Below the pieces are notes generated by a model. It did not search any database. It was given only the letters and a program-made list of their open reading frames with translations, and was not told where the DNA came from. Of a stretch of DNA of 64,000 bases, positions 9,001-53,425 are shown piece after piece. The position numbers and the translations under genes were made by a program. The DNA is from Mobula hypostoma (Eukaryota): the NCBI RefSeq assembly GCF_963921235.1, contig NC_086097.1, positions 30,816,001-30,880,000 on the forward strand, written 5' to 3'. Within the stretch, counting starts at the first letter, position 1, and the number at the start of each line of letters is the position of its first letter.

Positions 9001-9815
9001 GTGAGAGAGAGGAAGAGGGGTGAGAGAGAGGAAGAGGGGTGAGAGAGAGGGAGGGGTGTGAGAGAGGGAGGGTGTGAGAGAGGGAGGGGTGAGAGAGAGG
9101 GGTGAGAGAGAGAGGAAGAGGGGTGAGAGAGAGGGGTGAGAGAGAGAGGAAGAGGGGTGAGAGAGAGGAAGAGGGGTGAGAGAGAGGGAGGGGTGATAGA
9201 GTAGAAGAGGGGTGATAGAGAGAGGAAGAGGGGAGAGAGAGAGGAAGAGGGGTGAGAAAGAGGAAGAGGGGTGAGAGAGAGGGGGTGAGAAAGAGGAAGA
9301 GGGGTGAGAGGGGTGTGAGAGAGAGAGGAAGAGGGGTGAGAGAGAGGGAGGGGTGAGAGAGGAAGAGGGGTGAGAGAGGGGGAGGGGTGAGAGGGGGAGG
9401 GGTGTGAGAGAGGGAGGAAGAGGGGAGAGAGAGAGGAAGAGGGGAGAGAGAGAGGAAGGGAGGAGAGAGAGAGGAAGGGGGAGAAAGAGGAAGAGGGGTG
9501 ATAGAGAGAGGAAGAGGGGAGAGAGAGAGGGGTGAGAAAGAGGAAGAGGGGTGAGAAAGAGGTAGAGGGGTGAGAGAGAGGGAGGGGTGTGAGAGACAGA
9601 GAGGGAGGGGTGAGAGAGAGGAAGAGGGGTGCGAGGAGAGGAAGGGGGAGAGAGAGAGGAAGAGGGGTGAGAGAGAGGAAGAGGGGTGAGAGAGAGGAAG
9701 AGGGGTGAGAGAGAGAGAGGAAGAGGGGTGAGAGAGAGGGAGGGGTGAGAGAGAGGAAGAGGGGTGAGAGAGAGAGGAAGGGGAGTGCAAGGAGAGGAAG
9801 GGGGAGAGAGAGAGC
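1..9815 (+). repeat. GA-rich tandem array, variable unit ~17-21 bp, consensus ~GAGAGAGAGGAAGAGGGGT
   Basis: Continuous degenerate repeats. The + strand is almost all G/A with a periodic T and very few C. The array runs off the left edge of the window. Confidence 0.98.
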
Positions 9816-10012
9816 TAGACAGTGGAACAGTGGGCAAGGGATGAATAGAGGGAGAGACAGAAAGGGAAAGAGAAAAGGAGTGAATGGAAAGGGGGGCAGA
9901 GAGGGGAGAGAGAGGGGGACAGGAGGGGGAGAGAAAGAGAGAGAAACACATGGATGTGAGACAGGGAGAGGAATCGCGTGGGAGCAGGAGAGGTTAAAGT
10001 GGTAAAGAAGGT

Positions 10013-10286
10013 GAGCATTGAGAATGAGGATAAGGAAGTCGCGTTGCAGCTACATAAAACTTTGATTTGGCTGCACTGTGTGCCCCATTACAGTAAGGAT
10101 GTGGAAGCTTTGGAGTGGGTGAAGAAAAAGTTGACAAGGATACTGTCTGGATTATAGGGTATGAGTTAGTAGAAGTAGGACAAACTTGGACTATTTTTAC
10201 TTGGCTGAGGGGAGATCTCATAGATGTCTATGAAATTATGAGAGGTATAGATGGGCTAGATTGACTTTCTTTCCCAGATAGGGTAA
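10013..10286 (+). mobile_element. CR1 LINE fragment, RT C-terminal region (second copy ~14940-15213)
   Basis: Decayed match to the CR1 ORF2 motifs LQLYKTL, KDVEALE and LRGDLIDVYEIMRGID. Confidence 0.85.
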
Positions 10287-10590
10287 ATGCACTGTAACGG
10301 AAGGAATTTAATCAAACCACAGTGCGTGACATTGGCTAGTAAGTTCCCTGCGTGTAATCCGATCCATGCAATGTTTTCTTTCGGAAGGAAGCAGCGGCCG
10401 TTATGTCTGAGTGGCCCTGCTCTGATCATTGACAGCTCAGCCAGTGTCCACGGCATGTTGCAACCTGAACGTTCCACTGACTGCACAAACGACATACTGA
10501 GGGGAAAGTACTTGAAACTACTTCAAGGGAAAGGGCGGGAGACTGGGAAAGAGCGCCTGCCCCAGCTGCCAAGAAGCAACCTAGCAATGT
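10287..10590. promoter_or_regulatory. Non-repetitive CpG-retaining island, candidate cis-regulatory element (second copy ~15214-15517)
   Basis: No repeat recognised. Contains AACCACA, two CGGAAG, two TGCGTG, ATTGG, GGGCGGG and TGGGAA. Motif evidence only. Confidence 0.3.
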
Positions 10591-10624
10591 AAGAACTTAA
10601 GATAATAGGAGCAGGAATAGGATA

Positions 10625-11064
10625 GGGCAGCACTGTACTTAGTAGCTAGCAAAACTCTTTCCAGCATCAGCACTCAGAATTCAGTTCCCACCGTCGTCTG
10701 TAAGGAGTTTGTATGATCTCCCTGCAAACACAAGAGACTCACAAAATGCTAGAAATCCAGAGCAACACACACAAAATGTTGAAGGAACTCAGCAAGTCAG
10801 GCAGCACCTATAAAGAGGAATAAATAGCCGACATTTTGGGATGAGACCATACATCCTTGTTCTCCCTGTGATTCTAGGGTTTCCTCCAGGTACACTAGTT
10901 TCCTCCCACATTCCAGTAACAAATAGGTTGAGTTTAGTAAGAGGCAGACACCAATGTTGTCAACAGACGTGTGGCAACACTTGCTAAGACTGTGTTGGTT
11001 GTTGACACTAATGGCACTTTTCACTGTATGTTTTGATATACATGTGACAAATAAAGCTAATCTT
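10625..11064 (+). mobile_element. tRNA-derived V-SINE interrupted by a Penelope-like end (second copy ~15552-15991)
   Basis: Head ggcagcac..., V-domain-like gggtttcctccaggtac...tttcctcccacattcc, and tail atacatgtgacaaataaagctaatct shared with other copies in the window. Confidence 0.8.
10725..10848 (-). mobile_element. Penelope-like element terminal fragment nested in the SINE
   Basis: acacacaaaatgttgaaggaactcagcaagtcaggcagca is the reverse complement of the end seen at 63650-63745. It is truncated within the hammerhead region. Confidence 0.7.
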
Positions 11065-11500
11065 ACTTCACAAAATCTCAGCCCCTCAAGTCTGACCCAC
11101 CACTCAAGTATAATTGTGGCTGAACTCCAAGCATTCACAACTTTCTGCAAGAAGTAGTTTTAAATAACCAACCCATATTGTAATGGCAATCTCCTCCTTT
11201 GAGACTTTCCCTCTGCTGGAAATATCTCAGCATTTACCCCATTATGATCCCTTAAGATCACTCCTCAATATTCTAAACTTCAAAGAATATACATAGGTCC
11301 AATTCCTTTAGTGAACTCCTGTTGGGACAACCCTGTCATCCTGGAATTAGCCTAGTGAGTCAGTATGTAAATAAGGGGGTAAAAACTGTGTATTACAAAG
11401 ACTATCTGACAAAGGCAGGCTCAAAGCATTGTTATCAGTCACAAGATAATTGCATTGTTACAATGTAGAGATGCTTTCTACCTACATTCTCTTACCCCCG

Positions 11501-11812
11501 AGACAGACCATACGACAAAGGAGCAGAATTAGGCCATCCGGCCCATCAAGTCTGTTCCGCCATTCTATCATGGCTGATTTATTTTCCCTCACAGCACCAT
11601 TCTTCTGAGTAATCGTCATAATGTTCAATGCCTTTATGAATCAAGTACCTATCAACCACCGCGTTAAATGTATCCAGTGACTTGCCCTCAACAGCAATGA
11701 ATTCCAAAGACTCAGCACCCTCTGGCTAAAAAATTCCTCCTCATCTCTGTTCTAAAGGAACACTCTTCTATTCTGAGGCTGTGCCCTCTGGTTCTAGACT
11801 CTTCCACCTTAC
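11501..11812 (-). mobile_element. CR1 LINE 3' end (second copy ~16428-16739)
   Basis: agaccatacgacaaaggagcagaattaggccat... and attcctcctcatctctgttctaaagg, shared with 25444, 56411 and 61215. Confidence 0.85.
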
Positions 11813-11834
11813 GTAGACTGTAAAGATCAGGTGA

Positions 11835-12322
11835 AAGTTCAAGTTCAAGTTTCGTTTATTGTTATTGAACCGTACACATGTATACCGCCAAATGAGACAA
11901 AATTTCTCTGGACAAGTGCACAACACAGTAGCTATAGCTCACACACATATTACCACTGGTAAATTAATAATTAATAAGTTGCATTTACAAGTTAAAAAGT
12001 AAACCATATAATGTTAGTGGCGTTACATGCATGATGATACATGGGTGGTGGCAGGGTGTTCAGTAGTCTCACAGCCTGGGAGAAGAAGCTGTTTCCCATC
12101 CTAACAGTTCCTATCCTAATGCAATACCTCCTGCCTAATGGTAGGGGGTCAAAGAGATTGTTAGACCGATGGGATGATAATAGAGAGACGCCAATGATCC
12201 TCTCAGCAGTTCTTGCAATCTTTTGTAGGGATTTACGGTCAAATGGCTTACAATTCCCATACCAGATGGCGATGCAGCTGGTCAGGGCACTCTTGATGGT
12301 GCTCCTGTAAAAATTGGTTACA
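11835..12322 (-). mobile_element. Rex1/Babar-type LINE 3' fragment (second copy ~16762-17249)
   Basis: ORF reads FYRSTIKSALTSCIAIWYGNC...NSFFSQAVRLLN, followed by a short (TTGAAC)n tail. Confidence 0.85.
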
Positions 12323-12344
12323 ATGGGGGGGGGGGGGCGGGGAG

Positions 12345-12612
12345 AAGCTACTACTCCTGCATCCACTCAGGCCTAGGGGGCTGGCGTCAGGCACGATGAC
12401 GGACTCTCCACTTCTCCCTCTCCCTCATCAGTGTGTTCAGTTCATCTACATTAGCTGCGCCGCTGTCTTCTAGGAGCGTGTTGACCATAGTCTTGGGAGG
12501 GCACCCAGGGTTCATCCTCCCGTGCTTGGGCTCCCATATGATGACTAGGCTGGCAGGTAGCTCGGGGTGGCGTAGACAGTGCCCTGCTTCTTGCAGTCTT
12601 CTCTCCTCGGGG
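12345..12612 (-). mobile_element. RTE/RTE-X-type LINE 3' fragment (second copy ~17271-17538)
   Basis: Minus strand reads RRLQEAGHCLRHPELPASLVIIWEPKHGRMNPGCPPKTMVNTLLEDSG and ends in a short TAG repeat. Confidence 0.7.
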
Positions 12613-12623
12613 AAGCTTCACTC

Positions 12624-14542
12624 AAAAAGTTCAAAAGTTCAAAGTAAAGTTATTACCATGACACCACGTACAACCCTGAGATTTATTTTCTTGCAGACAT
12701 ACTCAATGAATTGAATTGACTTTATTAATTACATCCTTCATGTACATGAAGAGTGAAAGTCTTTACGTTACATCTCCATCTAAATGTGCAATGTGCAATT
12801 ATAGTAATTTATAATAAATATTATGTATTATGTACAACCGGATAGTCAATATAACACAGAAATACAGTTGTGTCAGCATGAGTTAATCAGTCTGATGGCC
12901 TGGTGGAAGAAGCTGTCCCGGAGCCTGTTAGTCCAGGCTATTATGTTGCAGTACCGTTTCCCGGTTGGTCGCAGCTGGAACAGTTTGTGGTTGGGGTGAC
13001 TCGGGTCTCCACTGATCCTTCAGGCCCTTTTTACATACCTGTCTTTGTAAATGTCCTGAATAGTGGGGAGTTCACATCTGTGGATGTGCTGGTCTGTCGG
13101 CACCACTCTCAGCACAGTCCTGCGATTGAGGGAAGTACAGTTCCCATACCAGGCAGTGATGCAGCCAGTCAGGATGCTCTCAATCGTGCCTCTATAGAAA
13201 GTTCTTAGAATTTGGAAGGCCATACCAAACTTCTTCAACCGTCTGAGATGAAAGAGGCGCTGTTGTCCTTTTTTCACCTCACAGACGGTATGTACAGACC
13301 ACAGTGATGTTTATGCTGAGGAACTTAAAATTGTTCACCCTTTCAACCACAGATCCATTGATGTCTATAGGAGTTAGCTTGTCTCCAATACTCCTATAGT
13401 CCACAACCAGCTCCTTTGTTTTTGCGACATTGAGGGAGAGGTTGTTTTCTTGACACCACTGTGTCAGGGTGATGACTTCCTCTCTGTAGGCTGCCCCATT
13501 ATGATTTGAGATTAGGCCAATCAGTGTAGTGTCGTCAGCAAATTTAATTAGCAGATTGGAGAATAATAATTCATAACAGAATAATAACCATACTAGATTC
13601 AATGAAATAACGCACCAACATGGGTGTTCAACAAGTGTGCAAAAGACAACAAATGGTGCAAATACAAAAATAAATAAATAATAATACATAAACAATAAAT
13701 ATTGAGAGCATGAGATGAAGAGTCCTTGAAAGTGAGCCCATCAGTTGTGGGACCATTTCAATGATGGGACAAGTTAAGTTTTGTGAAGGTATCCCCTTTG
13801 GTTCAAGACCTTGATAGTTGAGGGATAAAAGCTGCTCCTAAACCTGGTGGTGTGGGTCCTGAGGCTCCTGTATCTTCTTTCTGATGGCAGCAGTGAGAAG
13901 AGAGCATGTCCTGGCTGTTGGAGATCCCTGATGATGGATGCTGCTTTTCTGCAACAAAGCTCCATGCAGATGTGCTCAATGGTTGGGAGGGCTTTACCCT
14001 TAATGGATGAGACCATACCACCACTTTTTGTAGGATTTTCTGTTTAAAGGCTTTGGTGCTTCCATATCAGACTGTGTTGTAACCAGTCAATACACTCTCC
14101 ACTACACATCTACAGAGGTTTGTCAAAGTTTTAGATGTCATCCTGAATCTTCACAAACTCCTAAGGAAATAGAGGTGTGTGCCATACTTTCTTTACAATT
14201 ACACTTATGTGCTGGGCCCAGAAAAGAACCTTGGAAGTAATAATTTGAGATATCCAAAGTTGCTGACCCTCTCCACCTCTGATCCTCTGATGACGACTGG
14301 CTCATGGACCTCTGGTTTCCTCCTCCGAAGTCAACAATCAGCTCCCTGCTGACTAAATACTGATATTGAGCAACAGGTTGTTGTTATGGCACCACTCAGG
14401 CAGATTTTTAATCTTCCTCCTATAGGCTGATTTGTTACCACCTTTGGGTTCAGCCTATGACAGTGGTGTCATCAGCAAACCTGCATATGGCATTGGAGCT
14501 GTGCTTAGCCACACATTCATAAGTGTAAAGTGAGGAGAGCAG
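12624..14542 (-). mobile_element. Rex1/Babar LINE containing a second nested Rex1 copy at ~12708-13562
   Basis: Motifs FADDTT, WCQENNLSLNVAKTKELVVDYR, QQRLFHLRRLKKFG and FYRGTIESILTGCITAWYGNC. The outer 3' UTR is split at ~12707 and resumes at ~13563. Confidence 0.88.
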
Positions 14543-14742
14543 NNNNNNNNNNNNNNNNNNNNNNNNNNNNNNNNNNNNNNNNNNNNNNNNNNNNNNNNNN
14601 NNNNNNNNNNNNNNNNNNNNNNNNNNNNNNNNNNNNNNNNNNNNNNNNNNNNNNNNNNNNNNNNNNNNNNNNNNNNNNNNNNNNNNNNNNNNNNNNNNNN
14701 NNNNNNNNNNNNNNNNNNNNNNNNNNNNNNNNNNNNNNNNNN
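14543..14742. other. Assembly gap (200 N)
   Basis: Run of exactly 200 N. Confidence 0.99.
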
Positions 14743-17700
14743 TAGACAGTGGAACAGTGGGCAAGGGATGAATAGAGGGAGAGACAGAAAGGGAAAGAGA
14801 AAAGGAGTGAATGGAAAGGGGGGCAGAGAGGGGAGAGAGAGGGGGACAGGAGGGGGAGAGAAAGAGAGAGAAACACATGGATGTGAGACAGGGAGAGGAA
14901 TCGCGTGGGAGCAGGAGAGGTTAAAGTGGTAAAGAAGGTGAGCATTGAGAATGAGGATAAGGAAGTCGCGTTGCAGCTACATAAAACTTTGATTAGGCTG
15001 CACTGTGTGCCCCATTACAGTAAGGATGTGGAAGCTTTGGAGTGGGTGAAGAAAAAGTTGACAAGGATACTGTCTGGATTATAGGGTATGAGTTAGTAGA
15101 AGTAGGACAAACTTGGACTATTTTTACTTGGCTGAGGGGAGATCTCATAGATGTCTATGAAATTATGAGAGGTATAGATGGGCTAGATTGACTTTCTTTC
15201 CCAGATAGGGTAAATGCACTGTAACGGAAGGAATTTAATCAAACCACAGTGCGTGACATTGGCTAGTAAGTTCCCTGCGTGTAATCCGATCCATGCAATG
15301 TTTTCTTTCGGAAGGAAGCAGCGGCCGTTATGTCTGAGTGGCCCTGCTCTGATCATTGACAGCTCAGCCAGTGTCCACGGCATGTTGCAACCTGAACGTT
15401 CCACTGACTGCACAAACGACATACTGAGGGGAAAGTACTTGAAACTACTTCAAGGGAAAGGGCGGGAGACTGGGAAAGAGCGCCTGCCCCAGCTGCCAAG
15501 AAGCAACCTAGCAATGTAAGAACTTAAGATAATAGGAGCAGGAATAGGATAGGGCAGCACTGTACTTAGTAGCTAGCAAAACTCTTTCCAGCATCAGCAC
15601 TCAGAATTCAGTTCCCACCGTCGTCTGTAAGGAGTTTGTATGATCTCCCTGCAAACACAAGAGACTCACAAAATGCTAGAAATCCAGAGCAACACACACA
15701 AAATGTTGAAGGAACTCAGCAAGTCAGGCAGCACCTATAAAGAGGAATAAATAGCCGACATTTTGGGATGAGACCATACATCCTTGTTCTCCCTGTGATT
15801 CTAGGGTTTCCTCCAGGTACACTAGTTTCCTCCCACATTCCAGTAACAAATAGGTTGAGTTTAGTAAGAGGCAGACACCAATGTTGTCAACAGACGTGTG
15901 GCAACACTTGCTAAGACTGTGTTGGTTGTTGACACTAATGGCACTTTTCACTGTATGTTTTGATATACATGTGACAAATAAAGCTAATCTTACTTCACAA
16001 AATCTCAGCCCCTCAAGTCTGACCCACCACTCAAGTATAATTGTGGCTGAACTCCAAGCATTCACAACTTTCTGCAAGAAGTAGTTTTAAATAACCAACC
16101 CATATTGTAATGGCAATCTCCTCCTTTGAGACTTTCCCTCTGCTGGAAATATCTCAGCATTTACCCCATTATGATCCCTTAAGATCACTCCTCAATATTC
16201 TAAACTTCAAAGAATATACATAGGTCCAATTCCTTTAGTGAACTCCTGTTGGGACAACCCTGTCATCCTGGAATTAGCCTAGTGAGTCAGTATGTAAATA
16301 AGGGGGTAAAAACTGTGTATTACAAAGACTATCTGACAAAGGCAGGCTCAAAGCATTGTTATCAGTCACAAGATAATTGCATTGTTACAATGTAGAGATG
16401 CTTTCTACCTACATTCTCTTACCCCCGAGACAGACCATACGACAAAGGAGCAGAATTAGGCCATCCGGCCCATCAAGTCTGTTCCGCCATTCTATCATGG
16501 CTGATTTATTTTCCCTCACAGCACCATTCTTCTGAGTAATCGTCATAATGTTCAATGCCTTTATGAATCAAGTACCTATCAACCACCGCGTTAAATGTAT
16601 CCAGTGACTTGCCCTCAACAGCAATGAATTCCAAAGACTCAGCACCCTCTGGCTAAAAAATTCCTCCTCATCTCTGTTCTAAAGGAACACTCTTCTATTC
16701 TGAGGCTGTGCCCTCTGGTTCTAGACTCTTCCACCTTACGTAGACTGTAAAGATCAGGTGAAAGTTCAAGTTCAAGTTTCGTTTATTGTTATTGAACCGT
16801 ACACATGTATACCGCCAAATGAGACAAAATTTCTCTGGACAAGTGCACAACACAGTAGCTATAGCTCACACACATATTACCACTGGTAAATTAATAATTA
16901 ATAAGTTGCATTTACAAGTTAAAAAGTAAACCATATAATGTTAGTGGCGTTACATGCATGATGATACATGGGTGGTGGCAGGGTGTTCAGTAGTCTCACA
17001 GCCTGGGAGAAGAAGCTGTTTCCCATCCTAACAGTTCCTATCCTAATGCAATACCTCCTGCCTAATGGTAGGGGGTCAAAGAGATTGTTAGACCGATGGG
17101 ATGATAATAGAGAGACGCCAATGATCCTCTCAGCAGTTCTTGCAATCTTTTGTAGGGATTTACGGTCAAATGGCTTACAATTCCCATACCAGATGGCGAT
17201 GCAGCTGGTCAGGGCACTCTTGATGGTGCTCCTGTAAAAATTGGTTACAATGGGGGGGGGGGGCGGGGAGAAGCTACTACTCCTGCATCCACTCAGGCCT
17301 AGGGGGCTGGCGTCAGGCACGATGACGGACTCTCCACTTCTCCCTCTCCCTCATCAGTGTGTTCAGTTCATCTACATTAGCTGCGCCGCTGTCTTCTAGG
17401 AGCGTGTTGACCATAGTCTTGGGAGGGCACCCAGGGTTCATCCTCCCGTGCTTGGGCTCCCATATGATGACTAGGCTGGCAGGTAGCTCGGGGTGGCGTA
17501 GACAGTGCCCTGCTTCTTGCAGTCTTCTCTCCTCGGGGAAGCTTCACTCAAAAAGTTCAAAAGTTCAAAGTAAAGTTATTACCATGACACCACGTACAAC
17601 CCTGAGATTTATTTTCTTGCAGACATACTCAATGAATTGAATTGACTTTATTAATTACATCCTTCATGTACATGAAGAGTGAAAGTCTTTACGTTACATC

Positions 17701-19468
17701 TCCATCTAAATGTGCAATGTGCAATTATAGTAATTTATAATAAATATTATGTATTATGTACAACCGGATAGTCAATATAACACAGAAATACAGTTGTGTC
17801 AGCATGAGTTAATCAGTCTGATGGCCTGGTGGAAGAAGCTGTCCCGGAGCCTGTTAGTCCAGGCTATTATGTTGCAGTACCGTTTCCCGGTTGGTCGCAG
17901 CTGGAACAGTTTGTGGTTGGGGTGACTCGGGTCTCCACTGATCCTTCAGGCCCTTTTTACATACCTGTCTTTGTAAATGTCCTGAATAGTGGGGAGTTCA
18001 CATCTGTGGATGTGCTGGTCTGTCGGCACCACTCTCAGCACAGTCCTGCGATTGAGGGAAGTACAGTTCCCATACCAGGCAGTGATGCAGCCAGTCAGGA
18101 TGCTCTCAATCGTGCCTCTATAGAAAGTTCTTAGAATTTGGAAGGCCATACCAAACTTCTTCAACCGTCTGAGATGAAAGAGGCGCTGTTGTCCTTTTTT
18201 CACCTCACAGACGGTATGTACAGACCACAGTGATGTTTATGCTGAGGAACTTAAAATTGTTCACCCTTTCAACCACAGATCCATTGATGTCTATAGGAGT
18301 TAGCTTGTCTCCAATACTCCTATAGTCCACAACCAGCTCCTTTGTTTTTGCGACATTGAGGGAGAGGTTGTTTTCTTGACACCACTGTGTCAGGGTGATG
18401 ACTTCCTCTCTGTAGGCTGCCCCATTATGATTTGAGATTAGGCCAATCAGTGTAGTGTCGTCAGCAAATTTAATTAGCAGATTGGAGAATAATAATTCAT
18501 AACAGAATAATAACCATACTAGATTCAATGAAATAACGCACCAACATGGGTGTTCAACAAGTGTGCAAAAGACAACAAATGGTGCAAATACAAAAATAAA
18601 TAAATAATAATACATAAACAATAAATATTGAGAGCATGAGATGAAGAGTCCTTGAAAGTGAGCCCATCAGTTGTGGGACCATTTCAATGATGGGACAAGT
18701 TAAGTTTTGTGAAGGTATCCCCTTTGGTTCAAGACCTTGATAGTTGAGGGATAAAAGCTGCTCCTAAACCTGGTGGTGTGGGTCCTGAGGCTCCTGTATC
18801 TTCTTTCTGATGGCAGCAGTGAGAAGAGAGCATGTCCTGGCTGTTGGAGATCCCTGATGATGGATGCTGCTTTTCTGCAACAAAGCTCCATGCAGATGTG
18901 CTCAATGGTTGGGAGGGCTTTACCCTTAATGGATGAGACCATACCACCACTTTTTGTAGGATTTTCTGTTTAAAGGCTTTGGTGCTTCCATATCAGACTG
19001 TGTTGTAACCAGTCAATACACTCTCCACTACACATCTACAGAGGTTTGTCAAAGTTTTAGATGTCATCCTGAATCTTCACAAACTCCTAAGGAAATAGAG
19101 GTGTGTGCCATACTTTCTTTACAATTACACTTATGTGCTGGGCCCAGAAAAGAACCTTGGAAGTAATAATTTGAGATATCCAAAGTTGCTGACCCTCTCC
19201 ACCTCTGATCCTCTGATGACGACTGGCTCATGGACCTCTGGTTTCCTCCTCCGAAGTCAACAATCAGCTCCCTGCTGACTAAATACTGATATTGAGCAAC
19301 AGGTTGTTGTTATGGCACCACTCAGGCAGATTTTTAATCTTCCTCCTATAGGCTGATTTGTTACCACCTTTGGGTTCAGCCTATGACAGTGGTGTCATCA
19401 GCAAACCTGCATATGGCATTGGAGCTGTGCTTAGCCACACATTCATAAGTGTAAAGTGAGGAGAGCAG
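14743..19468 (+). repeat. 4.7-kb near-identical direct duplication, copy B
   Basis: Starts at the first base after the gap with the sequence of 9816 onward. It continues past 19468 into the same Rex1 element that is cut by the gap in copy A. Confidence 0.97.
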
Positions 19469-19565
19469 GGGACTAAGCACACAGCCTTGTGGTGCACCTG
19501 TGCTGATGGAGATCGTGGAGGATATGTTGTCAATCCAAACTGACTGGAGTCTGCAAGTGAGGAAA
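17550..19565 (-). mobile_element. Rex1/Babar LINE with nested Rex1 (~17634-18488), copy B, extending beyond the duplication
   Basis: Same as 12624-14542, plus an upstream RT segment on the minus strand (ISTGAPQGCVLSPLL). Confidence 0.88.
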
Positions 19566-41270: not shown

Positions 41271-41721
41271 AGGTGGGAAATGTGCAATTACACAGGACAG
41301 AACTTCAAAGTGCACATGGAGTAACGCTATTGCGGGAGACAATGGACCAGAGAGGAGGCTGTAGGAACTGGGGAAGAGTAGGATTAGAATAAGTGAAACA
41401 TAAACAGAAGGAAGTGAGAGGAGCATGGTTCTGGATCCATTGGAATTATAAAGTAGATATTGTACACTACAGTTTGTAGAGGGTCAGCGAAAGTGGATAT
41501 TAAAAGGACATTGTGTATGGGGCTGGGGGAGGGGGTAGGATTCAGATTTTGGGATATGAAAGAGTACAGGGAGAAAGATGAGAGTAGAATTAGAATTAGA
41601 ATATGTGGATATGAATGGTATGGGGATTAAGGAAACGTGGAATTAATTGGGTGGGAATATTAAAGTGTAAGGCATAGGAGAGAGTGGGATTTTCAAGAGT
41701 ATAGTGAGTGAGGGGAAAATG

Positions 41722-42350
41722 AGATTAAACTGGATGAGATACTCAAGCATATGGGTGTAAATGGAGGATGGGATTAGACGGGGTGAGATACTCAAGGGTA
41801 TGGGTGTAAGTGGAGGGTGTGATTAGACAGGGTGGGATACTCAAGGGTATGGGTATAAATGGAGGGTGGGATTAGACAGGGTGGGATACTAAAGGGTATG
41901 GGTGTAAGTGGAGGGTGGGATTAGACAGGGTGGGATACTCAAGGATATGGATGTAAATGAAGGGTGGGATTAGACGGGGTGGGATACTAAAGGGTATGGG
42001 TGTAAGTGGAGGGTGGGATTAGACGGGGTGGGATACTCAAGGATATGGATGTAAATGGAGGGTGGAATTAGACAGGGTGGGATACTAATGGGTATGGGGT
42101 GGGATTAGACTGGATGGGATACTCAAGGATATGGGTGTAAATGGAGGGTGGGATTAGACGGGGTGGGATACTCAAGAATATGGGTGTAAATGGAGGGTGG
42201 GATTAGACGGGGTGGGATACTAATAGGTATGGGTGTAAATGGAGGGTGGGATTAGACAGAGTGGGATACTAATGGGTATGGGGGTGGGATTAGACTGGAT
42301 GGGATACTCAAGGATATGGGTGTAAATGGAGGGTGAGATACTCAAGTGTA
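41722..42350 (+). repeat. 49-bp G-rich minisatellite (GGGATTAGACRGGGTGGGATACTCAAGGGTATGGGTGTAAATGGAGGGT)
   Basis: About 13 units with a 49-bp period (e.g. gtgggatact at 41881 and 41930). A shorter variant unit occurs twice. Confidence 0.95.
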
Positions 42351-42359
42351 TGGATGTAG

Positions 42360-43261: not shown

Positions 43262-44870
43262 TGTGAATAGTGGTATGTCGCAGAGATCAGTGCTGGGTCC
43301 TTTGTTGTTTGTCATCTATATCAACAATCTGGTTGATAATGTGATGAACTGGATTTGTGGATGGTACCAAGATTGGGGATCTAGTAGGAAGCGAGTAAGA
43401 CTATCATGGCTTACAGCAGGATCTGGACCAGTTGGGAAAATGGGCTGAAAAATAGCAAATGGAATTTAATATAGACAAGTCAAGTGTTGCACTTTGGTAG
43501 GATGAACCAGGGTAGGTCTTACATAATGAGCGATACGCACTGAGAGCCATTTCTCCTTGAAAGTGATGACACAGGTTGATAGGACCATAAAAAAAGCTCT
43601 TGGCACATTGGTCTTCATAAATCAAAGCATTCAGGATAAAGATGTATGTTATGTTGAAGTTGTATAAGACGTTGGTGAGGCCTAATCTGGAGTACTGTAT
43701 GTAGCTTTAGTCACCTACCTAGAGGAAAGATGTAAATAAGGTTAAAAGAGTACAGACAAAATTTATAAGGCAAGATTAAATAGGTTAGGGCTTTATTCCT
43801 TGGAATGTAGAAGATTGAGAGGAGATTTGATAGAGGTAAACAAAATTTATCAGTATAGATTAGATTAGATTAAGAGGACACTCAGTCCTCGCTTATTGTC
43901 ATTTAGAAATGCATGCATTAAAAAATGATACAATGTTCCTCCAGTATGATATCACAGAAACAAAAGACAGACCAAGACTAAAACTGATAAAAACCACATA
44001 ATTATAACATATAGTTACAATAGTGCAAAGCAATACCGTAATTTGATTTCCACAGACCATGGGCATGGTAAAAAAAAGTCTCAAAGTCCCAATAGCCCCA
44101 ACATCTCACAAAGACGGTAGAAGGAAGAAACTCTCCTTGTCATGATCTTCCAACGCTGCAAACTTGCCAATGCAGCATCCTGGAAGCACTCGACCACAGT
44201 CCAATTCCGAGTCCGTCCGAATACCTCCAGCCTCCGACCAGCCCTCCAACACCGAGCACTGAGCACCATCTCTGCCTAGCGCTTCGACCCCGGTCCCGGC
44301 CACCAAGCAACAGGCAAAGCCGAGGATTTGGGACCTTCCCCTCCTGAGATTTCGGATCACACAGTAGCAGCAGCAGCGAAGAAGGCATTTCAGAAGTTTC
44401 ACCAGATGTTCCTCCATGCTCTCACGTCCGTCTCCATCAAATCAGAATTGTGCACAGCCTCCTACTTGACAGATTACAGATATTCATCACAGGAGAGGCC
44501 GCATGCACTGCGTCGCGCCACCATCTTCTCCTCCTCCCAATAGGGTAAACGCAAGCAGGCTTTTTCCACTGAGGTTGGATAGGGCTACAACTAGAGGCCA
44601 CGTGTTAAGGGTGAAAGGTGAAAAGTTTAAGGGGAACATGAAGGGAAACTTCTTCACTCAGAGGGTTGTGAGAGTGTGGAATGAGCTGCCAGCACAAGTG
44701 ATACATGCGAGCTCGATCAGAGAAGTCTGGAGATCTATATACAGATGGTAGGGGCCTGGAGGGCTATAGTCCTGTTGCAGGTGAATGGAAGTAGGCAGTT
44801 TAAATGGCTTGGCACGGACTAGATGGTCTGAATGGGCTTTTGCCGTGTAGTACTTTTCTATGACTCTATA
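43262..44870 (+). mobile_element. CR1 RT and 3' end, split by 43856-44538
   Basis: SGMSQRSVLGPLLFVIYINNL, LYKTLVRPNLEYC and TTRGHVLRVKGEKFKGNMKGNFFTQRVVRVWNELP. Confidence 0.9.
43856..44538 (-). mobile_element. ~680-bp non-coding retroelement, copy 2
   Basis: Similar to 37161-37837 along its length. Head GGGAGGAGGAGAAGATGGTGG and an (ATCTA)n tail. Confidence 0.85.
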
Positions 44871-45385
44871 TGGCACCATATACTAGCCAGAGATTCATTT
44901 TCTTGCAGGCATTCACAGTAAACACAAGAAACACAATAGAATCGATGAAAGCTGCACCCAATAAGACAAACAACCAATGTGCAAACTGAAAAATAATAAT
45001 AAATAAATAAGCAACAAATATCGTGAACATGAGATGAAGAGTCCTTGTAAATGAGTCCATAGGTTGTGGAAACAGTTCAGTGATGGGGGGAGCGAAGTTA
45101 TCCCCTCTGGTTCAAGAACCTGATGGTTGAAGGGTAATAACCGTTCCTGAACCTGGTGGCTTGGGTCCTGACCTTCTTACTGAGGGCAGCAGCAATAAAA
45201 GAGCATGGATTGGATGGTGGGAGTCCTTGATGATGGATGCTACTTTACTGTGACAACACTCTGTGCAGATGTGCTCAGTGGTGCAGAGAGCTTTGTCTGT
45301 GATAAACTGGGCCATTTCCACTACTTTTTGTTGGCTTTTCCATTCAAGGGTTCAAGGACATCAAGACCTGGTATGGTGTTTCCAT

Positions 45386-45612
45386 CAACACATATAAAAG
45401 TTGCTGGTGAACGCAGCAGACCAGGCAGCACCTCTAGGAAGAGGTGCAGTCGACGTTTCAGGCCGAGACCCTTCGTTAGTCCTGACGAAGGGTCTCGGCC
45501 TGAAATGTCGACTGCACCTCTTCCTAGAGATGCTGCCTGGCCTGCTGCGTTCACCAGCAACTTTTATGTGTGTTGCTTGAATTTCCAGCATCTGCAGAAT
45601 TCCTGTTGTTTG
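45386..45612. mobile_element. Inverted pair of Penelope-like ends (~90-bp arms)
   Basis: 45387-45475 is nearly the reverse complement of ~45486-45574. ATGGTGTTTCCAT flanks both sides (45373-45385 and 45613-45625). Confidence 0.88.
45477..45514 (+). ncRNA. Minimal type I hammerhead ribozyme motif
   Basis: tagtc-CTGACGA-agggtctcggcct-GAAA-tg-TC-gactg, giving stem I UAGUC/GACUG, an intact core and a GUC triplet ending at 45509. Confidence 0.7.
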
Positions 45613-46373
45613 ATGGTGTTTCCATACCAGGCCATGATGCAACCAATCAATATACTCTCCACCAGAGATCTATAGAAGTTCGTCAAAGTTTTGGATGACA
45701 TGCCAAATATATGCAAACTTCTAAGGAAGTGGAGGCACTGCTGTGCTTTCTTTGTAATGGCACTTACATGCTGGACCCAGGACAGATCCTCTGAAATAAC
45801 ATAGAGGAAATTAAAGTTGCTGATCCTCTCCTCTTCTGATCCCCTGATGAGGACAGTTCATGAACCTCTGGTTTATTCCTGCTGAAGTCCTTCCTTGGTC
45901 TTGCTGACATTGAATGAGAGGTTGTTGTTGTGGCACCACTCAGCTGAACTTTCAACCTTTCTTCAATATGCTGACTCGTCGCCACCATTGATTTGACCAA
46001 TGACAGTGGTGTCATCAGTAAACTTAAATAGAGCATTGGAGCTGCGCCTCACAGTCATAAGTATAAAGCAAGTAGAGCAGGAAGCTAAGCACAGTCTTGT
46101 GGTGCACCTCTGCTGATGGAGATTGTGGAGGAGATGTTTTTGCCGATCGACATTGACTAGGATCCAGTACATTATCCTTCGCAACTTCCGCCACCTTCAA
46201 CAGGACCCCACTACTAAGCACAACTTTCCCTCTCCACCCCCTCTGCTTTCTGCAGGGATCGGTCCCTCCCCACGGATCTCCCACCTGCCATTTATCCCTG
46301 TAAGCGTAAGTGCTACACCTGTCCCTACACCTCCTCTCTCGCCACCATTCAGGGCCCCAAACAGTCCTTCCCG

Positions 46374-46700
46374 GTGAGGCAGCACTTCACTTATGAGTCT
46401 GTTGGGGTCATCTATTGCATCTGGTGCTCCCGGTGCGGCCTCCTCTACATCGATGAAACCCGGCGCAGATTGGGGGACTGCTTCGGCGAGTACCTCCGCT
46501 CCGTCCGCTTTAACAAGCAGGATTTCCCGGTTGCCACCCACTTCAACTCTGCTTCCCATCCCCATTCAGATATGTCCATACATGGCCTCCTCTACTGCCA
46601 TGATGAGGCTAAACTCAGGTTGGAGGAGCTACACCTCATATACCGTCTAGGTAGTCTCCAGCCCCTTGATATGAACATAGAATCCTTCAACTTCTGGTAA
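46374..46700 (+). pseudogene. GIY-YIG endonuclease domain of the Penelope-like element
   Basis: VIYCIWCSRCGLLYIDETRRRLGDCFGEY...PVATHFN...RLEELHLIYRLGSLQP. YIG is changed to YID, and the frame is shifted relative to the upstream RT piece. Confidence 0.88.
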
Positions 46701-46962
46701 TTCCCTCCCCCTCCCTTCCCCTATCCCTATTTCACTCTGCCCCCACCCCCAGCTGCCTATCACCTCCCTTATCACCTGCCTCCTTCTACTACCCATTGTG
46801 TTTTCCCCTATTCCTTCTTCACCTTTCCTGCCTACCACCTCCCTGCTTCCCCTCCCCCACCCCTTTATCTTTCCCCTTACTGGTTCTTCACCTGGAACCT
46901 ACCAGCTTTCTCCTTCCCACCTTCCCCCCACCTTCTTTATAGGGCCTCTGCCCCTTCCCTCT

Positions 46963-47002
46963 TCAGTCCTGATGAAGGGTTCCGGCCCGAAACGTTGACT
47001 GA
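46963..47002 (+). ncRNA. Minimal type I hammerhead ribozyme motif (best-preserved copy)
   Basis: tcagtc-CTGATGA-a-ggg-ttccgg-ccc-GAAA-cg-TT-gactga, giving a 6-bp stem I, stem II GGG/CCC, a palindromic AACGUU stem III and a GUU triplet ending at 46996. Confidence 0.8.
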
Positions 47003-47020
47003 TCGTTTCCATGGATTAAC

Positions 47021-48149
47021 TTTGTTGTTTTTAAGTGACTCCTGTGTAGCTTTGGCTTTATGCTTGGGGTCATTGTCTTGCTGGAAAACAAATCTTCTCC
47101 CAAGTCGCAGTTCTCTTGCAGACTGCATTAGGTTTTCCTCCAGGATTTCCCTGTATTTTGTTGTATTAATTTTAAGCATCCCCACTACGTGATGCAGCCA
47201 CTACCATGCTTCACAGTAGGGATGGTGTGGTTTTGATGAGGTGCAGTGTTTGACTTATGCCAAACATAGTATTTAGTCTGATGGCAAAAAGCTCAATTTT
47301 GGTGTCTTCAGACCATATCTTCCAGATGACTTCAGAATCTTCCACATGCCTTCTGGCAAGTACTAGCCGAGATTTCATGGAAGTTTTTTTTCAACAGAGG
47401 CTTTCTCTTTGCCAGTCTCCCATAAAGCTGAGACTGGCAACAGCTGTTGTATGTGCAGTCTCTCCCATCTCAGCCACTGGAGTTTGTGACTCTTCCAGAG
47501 TTGTCATAGGTCTCTTGGTGGCCTCCCTCACTAGTCCCCTTCTTGCACGGTCACTCAGTTTTTGAGAACGGCCTGCTCTAGGCAGATTTACAGCTGTGCC
47601 ATATTCTTTCCATTTCTTGATGACTGACCTAACTGTACTTCAAGGGATATTCAGTGACTTGGGAATTTTCTTGCATCCATCTTCTGACTTGGGCTTTTCC
47701 ATAACCTTTTCACAGAGTTGCCTGAAGTGTTCTTTTGTCTTCATGGTGTGGTTTTTGCCAGGACACTGATACATCAGCAGTTGGACCTTCCAGATACAGG
47801 CATATTTTTACTACAATCTATCGAAACACCTTGACTGCACACGGTTATCACCATTTAACTAATTTTGTAACTTCTAAAACCAATTGGCTGCACCTGTGAT
47901 GATTTAGTGTGTCTTATAAAAGGGGGTGAATACTTACGCAATCAATTATTTTGTGCTTTATATCTGCAATTAATTTAGATCACTTTGTAGAAATCTGTTT
48001 TCACTTTGACACAGAAAAATCTTTTTCTGTTGATCAATGTCCAATAACCCAAATTAAATCCACTGTGATTCAATTTTGTAAAACAACAAAATATGAAAAC
48101 TTCTGGGCCGGGGGGGGGTGGGGTCAGTGAATACTTTTTATAGGCATTG
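47021..48149 (-). mobile_element. Tc1/mariner transposon (Tc1 type, IR/DR ends), 3'-truncated and inactive
   Basis: ATG at 47744 reads MKTKEHFRQL...NLPRAGRSQKLSDRARR, and the DDE region reads [14 protein letters not shown]. The TIR ends taggcattg at 48149 followed by TA, and gtgaatactt is repeated internally near 47925. Confidence 0.92.
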
Positions 48150-48204
48150 TATACTGTGTGGGGTAATAAAAGGTATAGGGAATGAAGAGAGGGGAATTTT
48201 ACTG

Positions 48205-48612
48205 TGTGGGGAGTGATGGGGGATGGGGAGTGATAGGGGATGACGAGTGATGAAGAATGGGGAGTGATGGGTGATGGGGAGTGATGAGGAATGGGGAGTG
48301 ATGGAATGGGGAGTGATGGGGGATGGGGAGTGATAGGGGATGACAAGTGATGAAGAATGGGGAGTGATGGGTGATGGGGAGTGATGAGGAATGGGGAGAG
48401 ATAGGGATGGGGAGTGATGAGGAATGGGGAGAGATAGGGATGGGGAGTGATGAGGAATGGGGAGAGATAGGGATGGGGAGTGATGGGGATGGGGAGTGAT
48501 GGGAATGGGGAGTGATGGGAATGGGGAGTGATGGGGGAATGGGGAGTGATGGGGGATGGGGAGTGATGGGGGATGGGGAGTAATGGGGGATGGGGAGTGA
48601 TGAGGAATGGGA
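48205..48612 (+). repeat. 16-17-bp minisatellite ~(GGGGAGTGATGGGGAT)n
   Basis: About 24 tandem units with almost no C. Confidence 0.95.
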
Positions 48613-49569
48613 TTATACTGTGTTGGCTAATAAAGGGTGTAGAGAGTGAAAGGAGAGGGTATCAGATGGTCCAGGATGTTAAAGATTGAGGGGAGAGTGG
48701 GATTAGTATGTGTAAGGTATAAAGGGTGTGGGGGGGTGGAAGAAGGGGATTAGATCAGGTAACATAGTAAAGACCTAGACAAAACAGAACCTGTGAAAGC
48801 AACTACAGCAACTTCCAATCAAAGCAGGGAATTTTTCACCAAAACACTCAATACTTAAACACATCCTGATTTTGCATTCAAACTCAGCCTCTTAATCGTA
48901 GAACACAGAACATTACAGCACAGTACGATGTTGTGCTGACCTTTTAACCCACTCTACGATCAACCTAACCCTTCCCTCCCACATAGCCTTCCATTTCTCT
49001 GTCATCATGTTAGTTAACAGGCTTGACTGGCCCAGTCATATAACTAACCTGGAAAAGGACTGACACTAAATGACCACCTTCTGATGAACTCCTTTTGCAA
49101 TCCAAGAAAATGTGAACGATTGTACTTTAACATGCTTCTGCAGCCTGCTTCTCTGTAAACAACTCCGATAACCCAGGTAGGAGTGAGGCAAGTGGTGAAA
49201 GGATCTTTTAACACATCAATAATCACATGGAGCGTACCTCATACCATCAGTCACCTTGTATTTACTGTACACATTAATGAATGTGGTTGTGTTTATTCTC
49301 CAGCTGAACAGGGTTCACTGTCACTTGCGTTTGTTCCTTCGTAGATTTGGATTTGGATTAACAACCAAATATTCAGTGCATTTTCATGCCTAGTAGTAGA
49401 TATGTGACAATGATCAGTAATGTGCAGTAATTAATCTCCATTTTATGGCATGCAAGTAGTGACTTTAACAAACTAGTCCACAACAGCCCTAATTTCAGTC
49501 AGTCTTGATGGCATTGCTGGCCAATGTACAGGATAACTTTTTTAAAGACAGTAAAATTATCCTTAAGAA

Positions 49570-51783: not shown

Positions 51784-52016
51784 CCAGCTCTTGGCTCCAT
51801 CCCTCCCCCTCCTGTCTTCTCCTATCATTTTGGATCTCCCCCTCCCCCACCCACTTTCAAATCTCTTACTAGCTCTTCCTTCAGTTAGTCCTGACGAAGG
51901 GTCTCAGCCTGAAATGTCAACTGTACCTCTTCCTAGAGATGCTGCCTGGCCTGCTGCGTTCACCAGCAATTTTGATGTGTGTTGCTTGAATTTCCAGCAT
52001 CTGTAAAATTCCTCAT
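51784..52016 (+). mobile_element. Short Penelope-like end with hammerhead motif (51886-51923) and 15-bp target duplication
   Basis: GTAGAGCACTGTTGT occurs at 51769-51783 and 52017-52031. CTGACGA is at 51891 and GAAA at 51911. Confidence 0.88.
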
Positions 52017-52370: not shown

Positions 52371-53425
52371 ACATAGAATAGCACAAAACAGTAACAGGCA
52401 CTTAGCCAACAATGCCTGTGCTGAACACCATGCCAAATTAAATTAAATCCTGGAGGAGCTCAGCACATCAGGCAGATCCTGACGAATCTCTTGCGTCTCC
52501 AGTGTGTTCCAGATTCCACTTCGAATGATAGATGGTATAACTTTGAGTCCTAATGAAGTCTCGCCCCAAAACATTGACAGTTTATTCCTCTCCATAGACA
52601 CTACTTGCCCTGCAGAGTTTCTCTGTGTGTGTATTGCTCTGGATTTCCAGCATCTGCAGAATCTCTTATGTAAACTGAATCCTGCCTGCCTGTCTGCCAG
52701 TGATCCAAATCCCTCCATTTTCTGCATATTCATGTATCTATCTGAAAGCCTCTTAAATCCTCTGTCATATCTGCTTTCTACACAACCCTTGTCAGCCTGT
52801 TCCAGGAATCCACTGCTCTTCATGTTAAAAAGCTTGCTCCACACATGTCCCTTAAACTATTTTCCCTATCATCTTAAAGTTATGCCCTCTAGTATTCAAA
52901 GAGGAATATGGAACATACTGGATGCACCAGACACTGGAATCTGGAGCAACAATCTGCAGGAGAAACTCAACCGGTTGAGCAACATCTATGGGATGACTGG
53001 AATTGTCGACAAAGTCCTCATGCAAGGTTTCGACCTGAAATGTCAACAACCCCTTTCCACCGACAGAAGCTGCATAACCCGCTGAGTTCCAGAATATTGT
53101 TTTGTTGCTCTAAATCACATTCAGAATGAAGAGACTCTCATAACACTTAAGACCAGGTGAAGGGGAAGGTGGTTGCCCACCTATACAAGGGACAATTTAC
53201 GGTTTACAAAGCACCTGATTTCACCTATCACCTGCCAGTTTAGACTCTTTCCCCTCCCCCCTTCTAATTCTGGCTTCTGCCCCCTTCCTTTCCAGTCAGA
53301 TGAAGGGTCTCAGCCTGAAATATTGACTGCTTATACCCCTCCATAGATGCTGCTTCACATGTAGAGTTCCTCCAGCATTTTGTATGCGTCACTCAAGATT
53401 TCCAGCATCTGCAGACTCTTGTGTC
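52371..53425. mobile_element. Cluster of a CR1 3' end (-) and three decayed Penelope-like ends (~52445-52672, ~52925-53115, ~53135-53425)
   Basis: Repeated gatttccagcatctgcaga termini, degenerate hammerhead cores (ctaatga, ctcatgc, cagatga), and CR1 NTRGHNFKMIG. Confidence 0.75.

What the first reader, a model, noticed from the sequence alone, without database searches (positions are those of the whole stretch)
46161..47020. Penelope-like GIY-YIG element ending in an intact minimal hammerhead ribozyme
Seen: about 260 nt after the GIY-YIG stop lies tcagtc-CTGATGA-a-ggg-ttccgg-ccc-GAAA-cg-TT-gactga (46963-47002). It has a 6-bp stem I, both conserved core boxes, a 3-bp stem II, a palindromic AACGUU in place of stem III, and an NUH triplet. 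Known: Penelope-like elements carry minimal type I hammerheads that are thought to cleave as dimers. Inference: a transcript of this strand could self-cleave after 46996. The class of system is known, but I cannot tell whether this family has been described.
Basis: partly seen in the sequence, partly recalled or inferred. Interest (0 to 1): 0.7.

Follow-up and report, generated by a model that had tools for sequence, protein, structure and literature searches.

The report
Decayed Penelope element with minimal hammerhead
This is the broken tail end of a very common jumping gene of a ray-like fish, carrying the small self-cutting RNA motif already known from this class of element; the motif is real, but this copy looks like a fossil rather than a working ribozyme.

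Summary
The motif is present as described and is not chance: a generic minimal-hammerhead descriptor hits it, while 0 to 2 of 300 shuffles give any hit. It has every minimal-hammerhead feature that Cervera and de la Peña (2014) reported for Penelope-like elements (PLEs). It lies 262 nt after the GIY-YIG endonuclease of a very high-copy PLE. The closest proteins are from rays, and the motifs point to the Neptune clade.

The copy is not intact. It lacks the RT and most of the 3' tail. The endonuclease region has a frameshift and has lost near-invariant G, R, H and C residues.

The ribozyme is the best preserved of 8 window copies. But its cleavage triplet is GUU (C17 in 6 of 8 copies), which ranks poorly for cleavage. 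The motif has no tandem partner, and upstream pyrimidines out-compete its fold. Rfam does not model it, and cleavage is untested.

This scan found the same kind of element before, in this genome and in others. Verdict: new member of a known kind, low interest.

The parts
46159..46241 (+). Remnant of the RT-endonuclease linker of the PLE ORF (frame +1); 5' truncation point at about 46159-46161; RT absent from the window
   Evidence: tblastn of P0001/P0003/P0007; loose ends at 46148 and 46160
46242..46700 (+). Linker Zn-finger-like motif and GIY-YIG endonuclease (frame +3, frameshifted against the upstream piece, 9-residue gap against P0001); departs from near-invariant C, G, R, H and G residues at codons 46392, 46452, 46479, 46491, 46668
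   Evidence: majority bases in four runs
46701..46962 (+). Pyrimidine-rich 3' UTR / pLTR body; its last ~30 nt can pair with the core and stem II and compete with the hammerhead fold
   Evidence: (71% match to pLTR copy 53220-53329)
46963..47002 (+). Minimal type I hammerhead motif without helix III; predicted scissile bond 46996/46997 after a GUU triplet
47003..47016 (+). Short remnant of the pLTR downstream of the hammerhead; the rest of the family's 3' end (about 85-100 nt in other copies) is missing
   Evidence: alignment; 580, 746, 73 and 76 loose ends at 47001
47015..48149 (-). Right flank: decayed Tc1-like DNA transposon, cut off where it meets the PLE (Tc1 label from weak HTH hits and a recalled terminal pattern)
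   Evidence: Pfam HTH_32 E 0.001 and HTH_SB E 0.022, both below cut-off; 179 loose ends before 47015 in X1
44861..46158 (-). Left flank: 3' part of a repeated LINE-like element
   Evidence: ALKBH8_N E 1.6e-9; repeats elsewhere in the window
45386..45612 (.). Related fold-back pLTR insertion (inverted arm 45386-45479, direct arm with one-sided tail), 13-bp target-site duplication; two hammerhead copies, one with G5 changed to A
51784..52016 (+). Related solo pLTR with a hammerhead copy and a 15-bp target-site duplication

Best explanation
46159-47016 is the decayed 3' end (linker, GIY-YIG endonuclease, pseudo-LTR) of a very high-copy, C-terminal-endonuclease Penelope-like retroelement, most likely Neptune clade, in a ray-like cartilaginous fish. 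Shown: anatomy, homology, motif, decay. Inferred for the active parent: it sits in partial tandems; read-through RNA carries two pLTR hammerheads; each lacks helix III, so two copies pair through the 4-nt palindrome to form a double hammerhead, probably helped by the element's protein, and cut after N17 to trim the transcript; the RT-endonuclease inserts copies by target-primed reverse transcription, mostly 5'-truncated. Inferred for this copy: a dead insertion, nested between or trimmed against a LINE and a Tc1 remnant, whose hammerhead is a solo relic with little or no cleavage.
For: 8 ray proteins hit the frame (6 of them cover 87-96% at 61-78% identity). Relatives carry RT then GIY-YIG. 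Linker Zn-finger plus internal CxxC in 6 of 6 ray proteins and 30 of 31 relatives of 700 aa or more; DKG in 27 of 31. About 63,000 and 61,700 contigs lay on the 1-kb stretch in two DNA-type runs. 14 pLTR profile hits in the window, about 10 sites. Sister copies have 13- and 15-bp target-site duplications, an inverted arm and a one-sided tail, as described for PLEs (PMC8557442 section 6). All four non-descriptor min-HHR traits of PMC4209133 can be compared: extra base after A9, G10.1-C11.1 and palindromic 15.2-16.2 are met. Decay: differs at 7 of 27 columns conserved in at least 75% of 108 relatives; frameshift; T-for-C and A-for-G differences dominate (30 and 10 of 93 places in X1). Against activity of this copy: U17, competing folds, monomers inactive and dimers weak, 8 of 9 tested Xenopus dimers inactive.
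Against: This copy is the best-preserved hammerhead in the window: the only one of 8 with full core, GAAA, G10.1-C11.1 and C15.2-G16.2 together, and the most stable modelled active dimer of three compared. The family-wide base at position 17 could not be read, because rows for 46963-47002 were cut, so U17 may be a subfamily trait and not decay. Covariation among the 8 copies is not above shuffles (42 of 500 for the score, 84 of 500 for percent paired), so selection on the RNA structure in this family is not shown. No Rfam hammerhead hit. No tree against named clades was built. The tandem parent was not seen.
Confidence: 0.85

Rival explanations
1. This copy's hammerhead still cuts: as a homodimer between two transcripts, as a heterodimer with another pLTR in the same long RNA, or with help from the protein of an active element.
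For: Core, stem II and stem I are all intact. GUU is a cleavable NUH triplet. The Anolis PLE hammerhead cleaves when its protein is added (PMC11167929). Same-strand copies with intact core lie at 45482 and 51891 and can be drawn as heterodimers.
Against: The modelled active homodimer (-23.1 kcal/mol) is less stable than two monomers (-26.0) or the cofold optimum (-31.1); heterodimers are worse (-15.4, -12.3). The 45482 copy is locked in a -67.9 kcal/mol fold-back. In context the hammerhead stems have pairing probability at most 0.05 once 8 or more upstream bases are included. These are nearest-neighbour energies without Mg or tertiary contacts.
Confidence: 0.08
2. The hammerhead is a passenger in the whole family: cleavage is not needed for retrotransposition, and the motif is kept only as part of the pLTR end that the RT recognises.
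For: In the Anolis element, core mutants did not change insertion in vitro, unprocessed RNA was the main substrate, and no RNA-seq reads ended at the cut site. Naiad PLEs spread without canonical hammerheads. No significant covariation here.
Against: The catalytic core is kept across PLE clades and kingdoms. The covariation test had only 8 old copies and one mis-set row.
Confidence: 0.25
3. The motif is a chance hairpin beside a GIY-YIG fragment.
For: No Rfam hit; folding z-score of the 40-mer is only -1.8.
Against: 0 to 2 of 300 shuffles give any descriptor hit; the motif recurs at the same place in the pLTR in 8 window copies; it sits where PLE hammerheads are described.
Confidence: 0.01

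Closest known systems
Minimal hammerheads (min-HHR) in pLTRs of metazoan PLEs, including Xena, Poseidon and Neptune of fishes (Cervera and de la Peña 2014, PMC4209133)
   Same: Type I, no helix III, extra base between 9 and 10.1, G10.1-C11.1, palindromic 15.2-16.2, in the pLTR, mostly solo copies of truncated elements, some as opposite-strand pairs.
   Different: Host is a batoid-like fish; no cartilaginous fish appears in the text parts read or in supplement file 2 (file 1 could not be searched). Stem II is 4 bp (7-8 bp in their Schistosoma families). This copy has U17.
Neptune clade of endonuclease-positive PLEs (features as given in Craig et al. 2021, PMC8557442)
   Same: [quoted passage not shown]
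   Different: This copy has no RT and has lost one linker Cys and the G, R and H residues. Nematis shares the linker and was not excluded by a tree.
Poseidon element PAc of Anolis carolinensis (Frangieh et al. 2024, PMC11167929)
   Same: PLE with hammerhead in the pLTR and a tail beyond it; the only mechanistic model read here.
   Different: Poseidon lacks the linker Zn-finger. PAc is intact and active in vitro; this copy is not.
Non-LTR retrozymes derived from PLE pLTRs (Li et al., bioRxiv 10.64898/2026.07.22.740005)
   Same: Type I hammerhead on pLTR-derived units; reported in one chondrichthyan genome.
   Different: Retrozymes are tandem and non-coding; this copy is solo and still attached to endonuclease coding sequence.

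Membership tests
Endonuclease-positive PLE | C-terminal GIY-YIG endonuclease | tested here: met
   Window frame itself 0 Pfam hits, but 35-38% identical over 133-141 aa to P0009 and P0016 (E 3e-28, 4e-30), which pass the GIY-YIG cut-off; 4 of 5 ray relatives hit GIY-YIG below cut-off.
Endonuclease-positive PLE | RT upstream in the same ORF | tested here: inconclusive
   Absent from this copy. Present upstream of the endonuclease in ray relatives and in 4 of 5 long relatives by Pfam.
Endonuclease-positive PLE | RT groups with PLE/telomerase RTs in a tree | not tested
Endonuclease-positive PLE | Two pLTRs / partial tandem | tested here: not met
   Only one truncated pLTR in this copy; usual for 5'-truncated insertions.
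Endonuclease-positive PLE | Inverted truncated arm and one-sided 30-40 bp tail in family insertions | tested here: met
   Sister copy 45386-45612 with 13-bp duplication. Not in the focal copy.
Neptune clade | CX2-5CxxC linker Zn-finger before GIY-YIG | tested here: met
   C28, C32, C35 kept; fourth Cys is Tyr in this copy but Cys in 107 of 108 relatives; 6 of 6 ray proteins match the pattern.
Neptune clade | CCHH motif with two Cys inside the GIY-YIG core (excludes Hydra, Chlamys) | tested here: met
   C70, C73, H108, H114 kept; H92 is Tyr here but His in 106 of 108 relatives.
Neptune clade | Distinction from Nematis by phylogeny | not tested
   Only indirect: Li et al. class the PLEs of their 35 genomes as Hydra, Naiad, Neptune or Poseidon, with the first two only in coral.
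min-HHR of metazoan PLEs | Core boxes CUGANGA and GAAA, U16.1, H17 | tested here: met
min-HHR of metazoan PLEs | Extra base between 9 and 10.1; G10.1-C11.1; palindromic 15.2-16.2 | tested here: met
   A46976; G46977-C46988; C46993 G46994 against the list
min-HHR of metazoan PLEs | Compensatory covariation within the family | tested here: inconclusive
   8 copies, not above shuffles; one row shifted by the aligner
min-HHR of metazoan PLEs | Self-cleavage as a dimer | not testable with these tools
   Only folding energies
Rfam hammerhead families | Covariance-model match | tested here: not met
   No hammerhead family listed at E<=1 (window) or E<=10 (161 nt)
Non-LTR retrozyme | Tandem units each with a hammerhead, no coding sequence | tested here: not met
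   Solo motif attached to endonuclease remnant

The most novel reading that the evidence does not exclude
With about one pLTR end every 5-6 kb, dispersed minimal hammerheads in ray genomes could complement each other inside long host pre-mRNAs and cut them as heterodimers, while the upstream pyrimidine tract acts as an anti-ribozyme switch that keeps solo copies off until a partner or the PLE protein binds. That would make a transposon relic a genome-wide, dimer-gated RNA cleavage system in a vertebrate.
Probability: 0.04. Interest if true: 0.7.

Novelty: new member of a known kind. Interest (0 to 1): 0.17.

Why it matters
It confirms that a very abundant ray PLE family carries the standard minimal hammerhead. 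That is useful for repeat annotation, since Rfam misses the motif and fragments of this ORF are folded into host gene models (for example entries named DIPK1C, mucin-2 and ABHD14A isoforms). The role of PLE hammerheads in vivo is still open, and a family this large could test selection on the core. This decayed solo copy is a poor tool for that; young tandem copies would be better.

Tried and rejected
No whole genome is held for this window, so no genome-wide count or full-length copy. No related loci: viral contigs, metagenome contigs, prokaryote genome contigs all gave 0. A protein search with a reading of the 3' UTR and hammerhead, meant to count C17 against U17, found nothing. Expression: no RNA holder listed. 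Two runs guessed to be RNA carry contigs over the stretch, and no start or end pile-up was listed, but contigs cannot show ends, strand or level. The variant table showed 40 of 128 rows and none for 46963-47002. No target-site duplication longer than 7 nt around the focal copy; the short hits were taken as chance. PDB sequence search: one hit at E 0.67, ignored. Rfam mir-3926 at 45443-45518 (47 bits, cut-off 82) is the fold-back hairpin, not a microRNA match. The zero chance count used a pattern drawn from the motif itself and was not relied on. Lünse et al. (PMC5785218) is not held. Paper searches for a description of this family in sharks or rays listed none; Repbase and Dfam could not be searched, so the family may well be catalogued there. 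No host gene or transcription direction was looked for. No structure prediction was run.

Full report
Observation. The 40-nt motif at 46963-47002 is in the sequence as written. In hammerhead numbering, C3-A9 is 46969-46975, an extra A follows, stem II is 46977-46980/46985-46988, GAAA is 46989-46992, and C15.2, G16.2, U16.1, U17 are 46993-46996. The cut would fall at 46996/46997. A generic descriptor finds 2 sites in the window (45482+, 46969+), and only this one at the strictest setting. Of 300 shuffles of the 53,800 non-satellite bases, 2 had a site at the loosest setting and 0 at the other two. Rfam lists no hammerhead family here.

Corrections to the drawing. Stem II is 4 bp with a U-G wobble and a tetraloop (pair probabilities 0.9-1.0 in the isolated 40-mer). 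The palindrome that can replace helix III is the 4 nt from 15.1 to 16.1. In a two-strand model the 6-bp form is 2.6 kcal/mol more stable than the active 4-bp form (-25.7 against -23.1), so it would hinder cleavage.

The coding part. The frame 46218-46700 has no Pfam hit. It hits 8 predicted proteins of Hypanus sabinus and Mobula hypostoma, 6 of them over 87-96% of its length at 61-78% identity (only proteins of 281-2000 aa searched). These carry the RT C-terminal half before the endonuclease, and 4 of 5 scanned hit GIY-YIG below cut-off. A profile of these found 17,697 proteins at E<=0.001. Of 5 long ones scanned, 5 hit GIY-YIG and 4 hit RVT_1. The window frame is 35-38% identical to two that pass the GIY-YIG cut-off. 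The linker CX2-5CxxC plus internal CxxC pattern is in 6 of 6 ray proteins and 30 of 31 stored relatives of 700 aa or more; DKG is in 27 of 31. By the features given in PMC8557442 (passages and section 6) this means Neptune or Nematis. I call it Neptune by host range, not by a tree.

Decay. tblastn puts 46159-46239 in frame +1 and 46242-46694 in frame +3, with a 9-residue gap, and finds no RT for this element in the window. Among the 108 of 160 stored proteins that cover the domain, 27 columns are conserved in at least 75%. This copy differs at 7, including the YIG glycine (108 of 108), the Arg (105 of 108), the His (106 of 108) and a linker Cys (107 of 108). One of the 7 (position 133) is shared with the ray proteins and is not decay. 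Contigs of four runs carry the conserved base at these places (86-99% of depth in X1).

Family size and ends. 63,087 and 61,684 contigs of two DNA-type runs lay on the 1-kb stretch, flanks included. This is no copy number, but it shows a very large family. Most relatives go on differently after 47001 (580, 746, 73 and 76 loose ends), into a 3' end that this copy loses after about 47016. The left neighbour is a LINE-like repeat and the right a Tc1-like remnant, with no convincing target-site duplication. A profile from 9 window copies gives 14 hits, about 10 sites. Two sister insertions have 13- and 15-bp duplications, and one is a fold-back with a one-sided tail, the PLE pattern.

State of the ribozyme. 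Eight window copies align to the motif at 21 of 33 bases or better. The core is intact in 5 of 8, GAAA in 6 of 8, C15.2-G16.2 in 2 of 8 and G10.1-C11.1 in 2 of 8; only the focal copy has all four. Position 17 is C in 6 of 8 and U in 2 of 8. C17-G1.1 is a CpG, and G1.1 is A in 3 of 8, so U17 is most simply a deamination (inference). A subfamily trait is not excluded, because the relevant rows were cut. GUU is ranked fourth of five tiers, GUC first (PMC8879150, passage). With 8 or more upstream bases the pyrimidine tract pairs with the core and stem II; the hammerhead stems fall to probability 0.05 or less, and forcing them costs 2.6-4.5 kcal/mol (5 of 6 windows; 0.6 with only 3 upstream bases). 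The active homodimer is predicted less stable than two monomers. Covariation among the 8 copies is not above shuffles.

Mechanism. For the parent element I infer the published model: tandem pLTRs give two helix III-less hammerheads that pair through the 4-nt palindrome and cut after N17. Single motifs did not cut and dimers cut weakly in PMC4209133 (text parts 1-2 of 4 read). In PMC11167929 (parts 1-2 of 4) the Anolis hammerhead needed the element's protein and was not needed for insertion in vitro. In the bioRxiv preprint 10.64898/2026.07.22.740005 (parts 1-3 of 5; supplements closed, so the chondrichthyan species is unseen) 1 of 9 Xenopus dimers cut. For this copy, solo, U17 and in a competing context, little or no cleavage is expected. 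None of this was tested at the bench. The passenger rival concerns the family-level role and can hold together with the relic reading.

Novelty. The kind is known since 2014, including Neptune elements of fishes. I found no paper on this ray family in six searches. Supplement file 2 of PMC4209133 has no shark, skate or Callorhinchus term, and file 1 could not be searched. Repbase and Dfam were not available. Lünse et al. was seen only as a cited title. PMC6765202, PMC6155905 and PMC3138052 were seen as passages. Earlier notes of this scan describe the same kind of element in this genome and others; they are unchecked AI notes and were not used as support.

Verdict. Observation confirmed, interpretation partly supported, new member of a known kind, interest 0.17.

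Noticed in passing
window 45386-45612: Fold-back pLTR insertion with a 13-bp target-site duplication and a tail on one arm only; would form a long hairpin RNA (weak Rfam mir-3926 hit comes from this).
   Followed up: yes
window 52445-52646 and 52945-53110: Two older opposite-strand pairs of pLTR ends, probably decayed fold-backs; no clear target-site duplication.
   Followed up: partly
window 10000-14542 and 14927-19528: Near-exact duplication at 4926-4927 nt spacing across the 200-N gap at 14543-14742; probably an assembly artefact.
   Followed up: no
window 1-10000: Ten kb with almost only purines on the + strand (GC skew about 1, AT skew about 0.75).
   Followed up: no
window 41659-42358 and 48173-48652: 49-nt and about 17-nt purine-rich minisatellites.
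   Followed up: no
run X1 contigs laid on 46965-47003: Joints from 47003 and 46999 back to 46965 (table 5c; kind not shown). They could be tandem units of about 39 nt that are just the hammerhead, or fold-backs on stem I.
   Followed up: no
P0001, P0002, P0008: Ray gene models named DIPK1C, mucin-2 and ABHD14A isoforms consist partly or wholly of this PLE's ORF; likely annotation errors or exonised fragments.
   Followed up: no
P0009: An unnamed 752-aa relative has C2H2 zinc fingers in front of the PLE RT and GIY-YIG; may be a fusion or a mis-called ORF.
   Followed up: no
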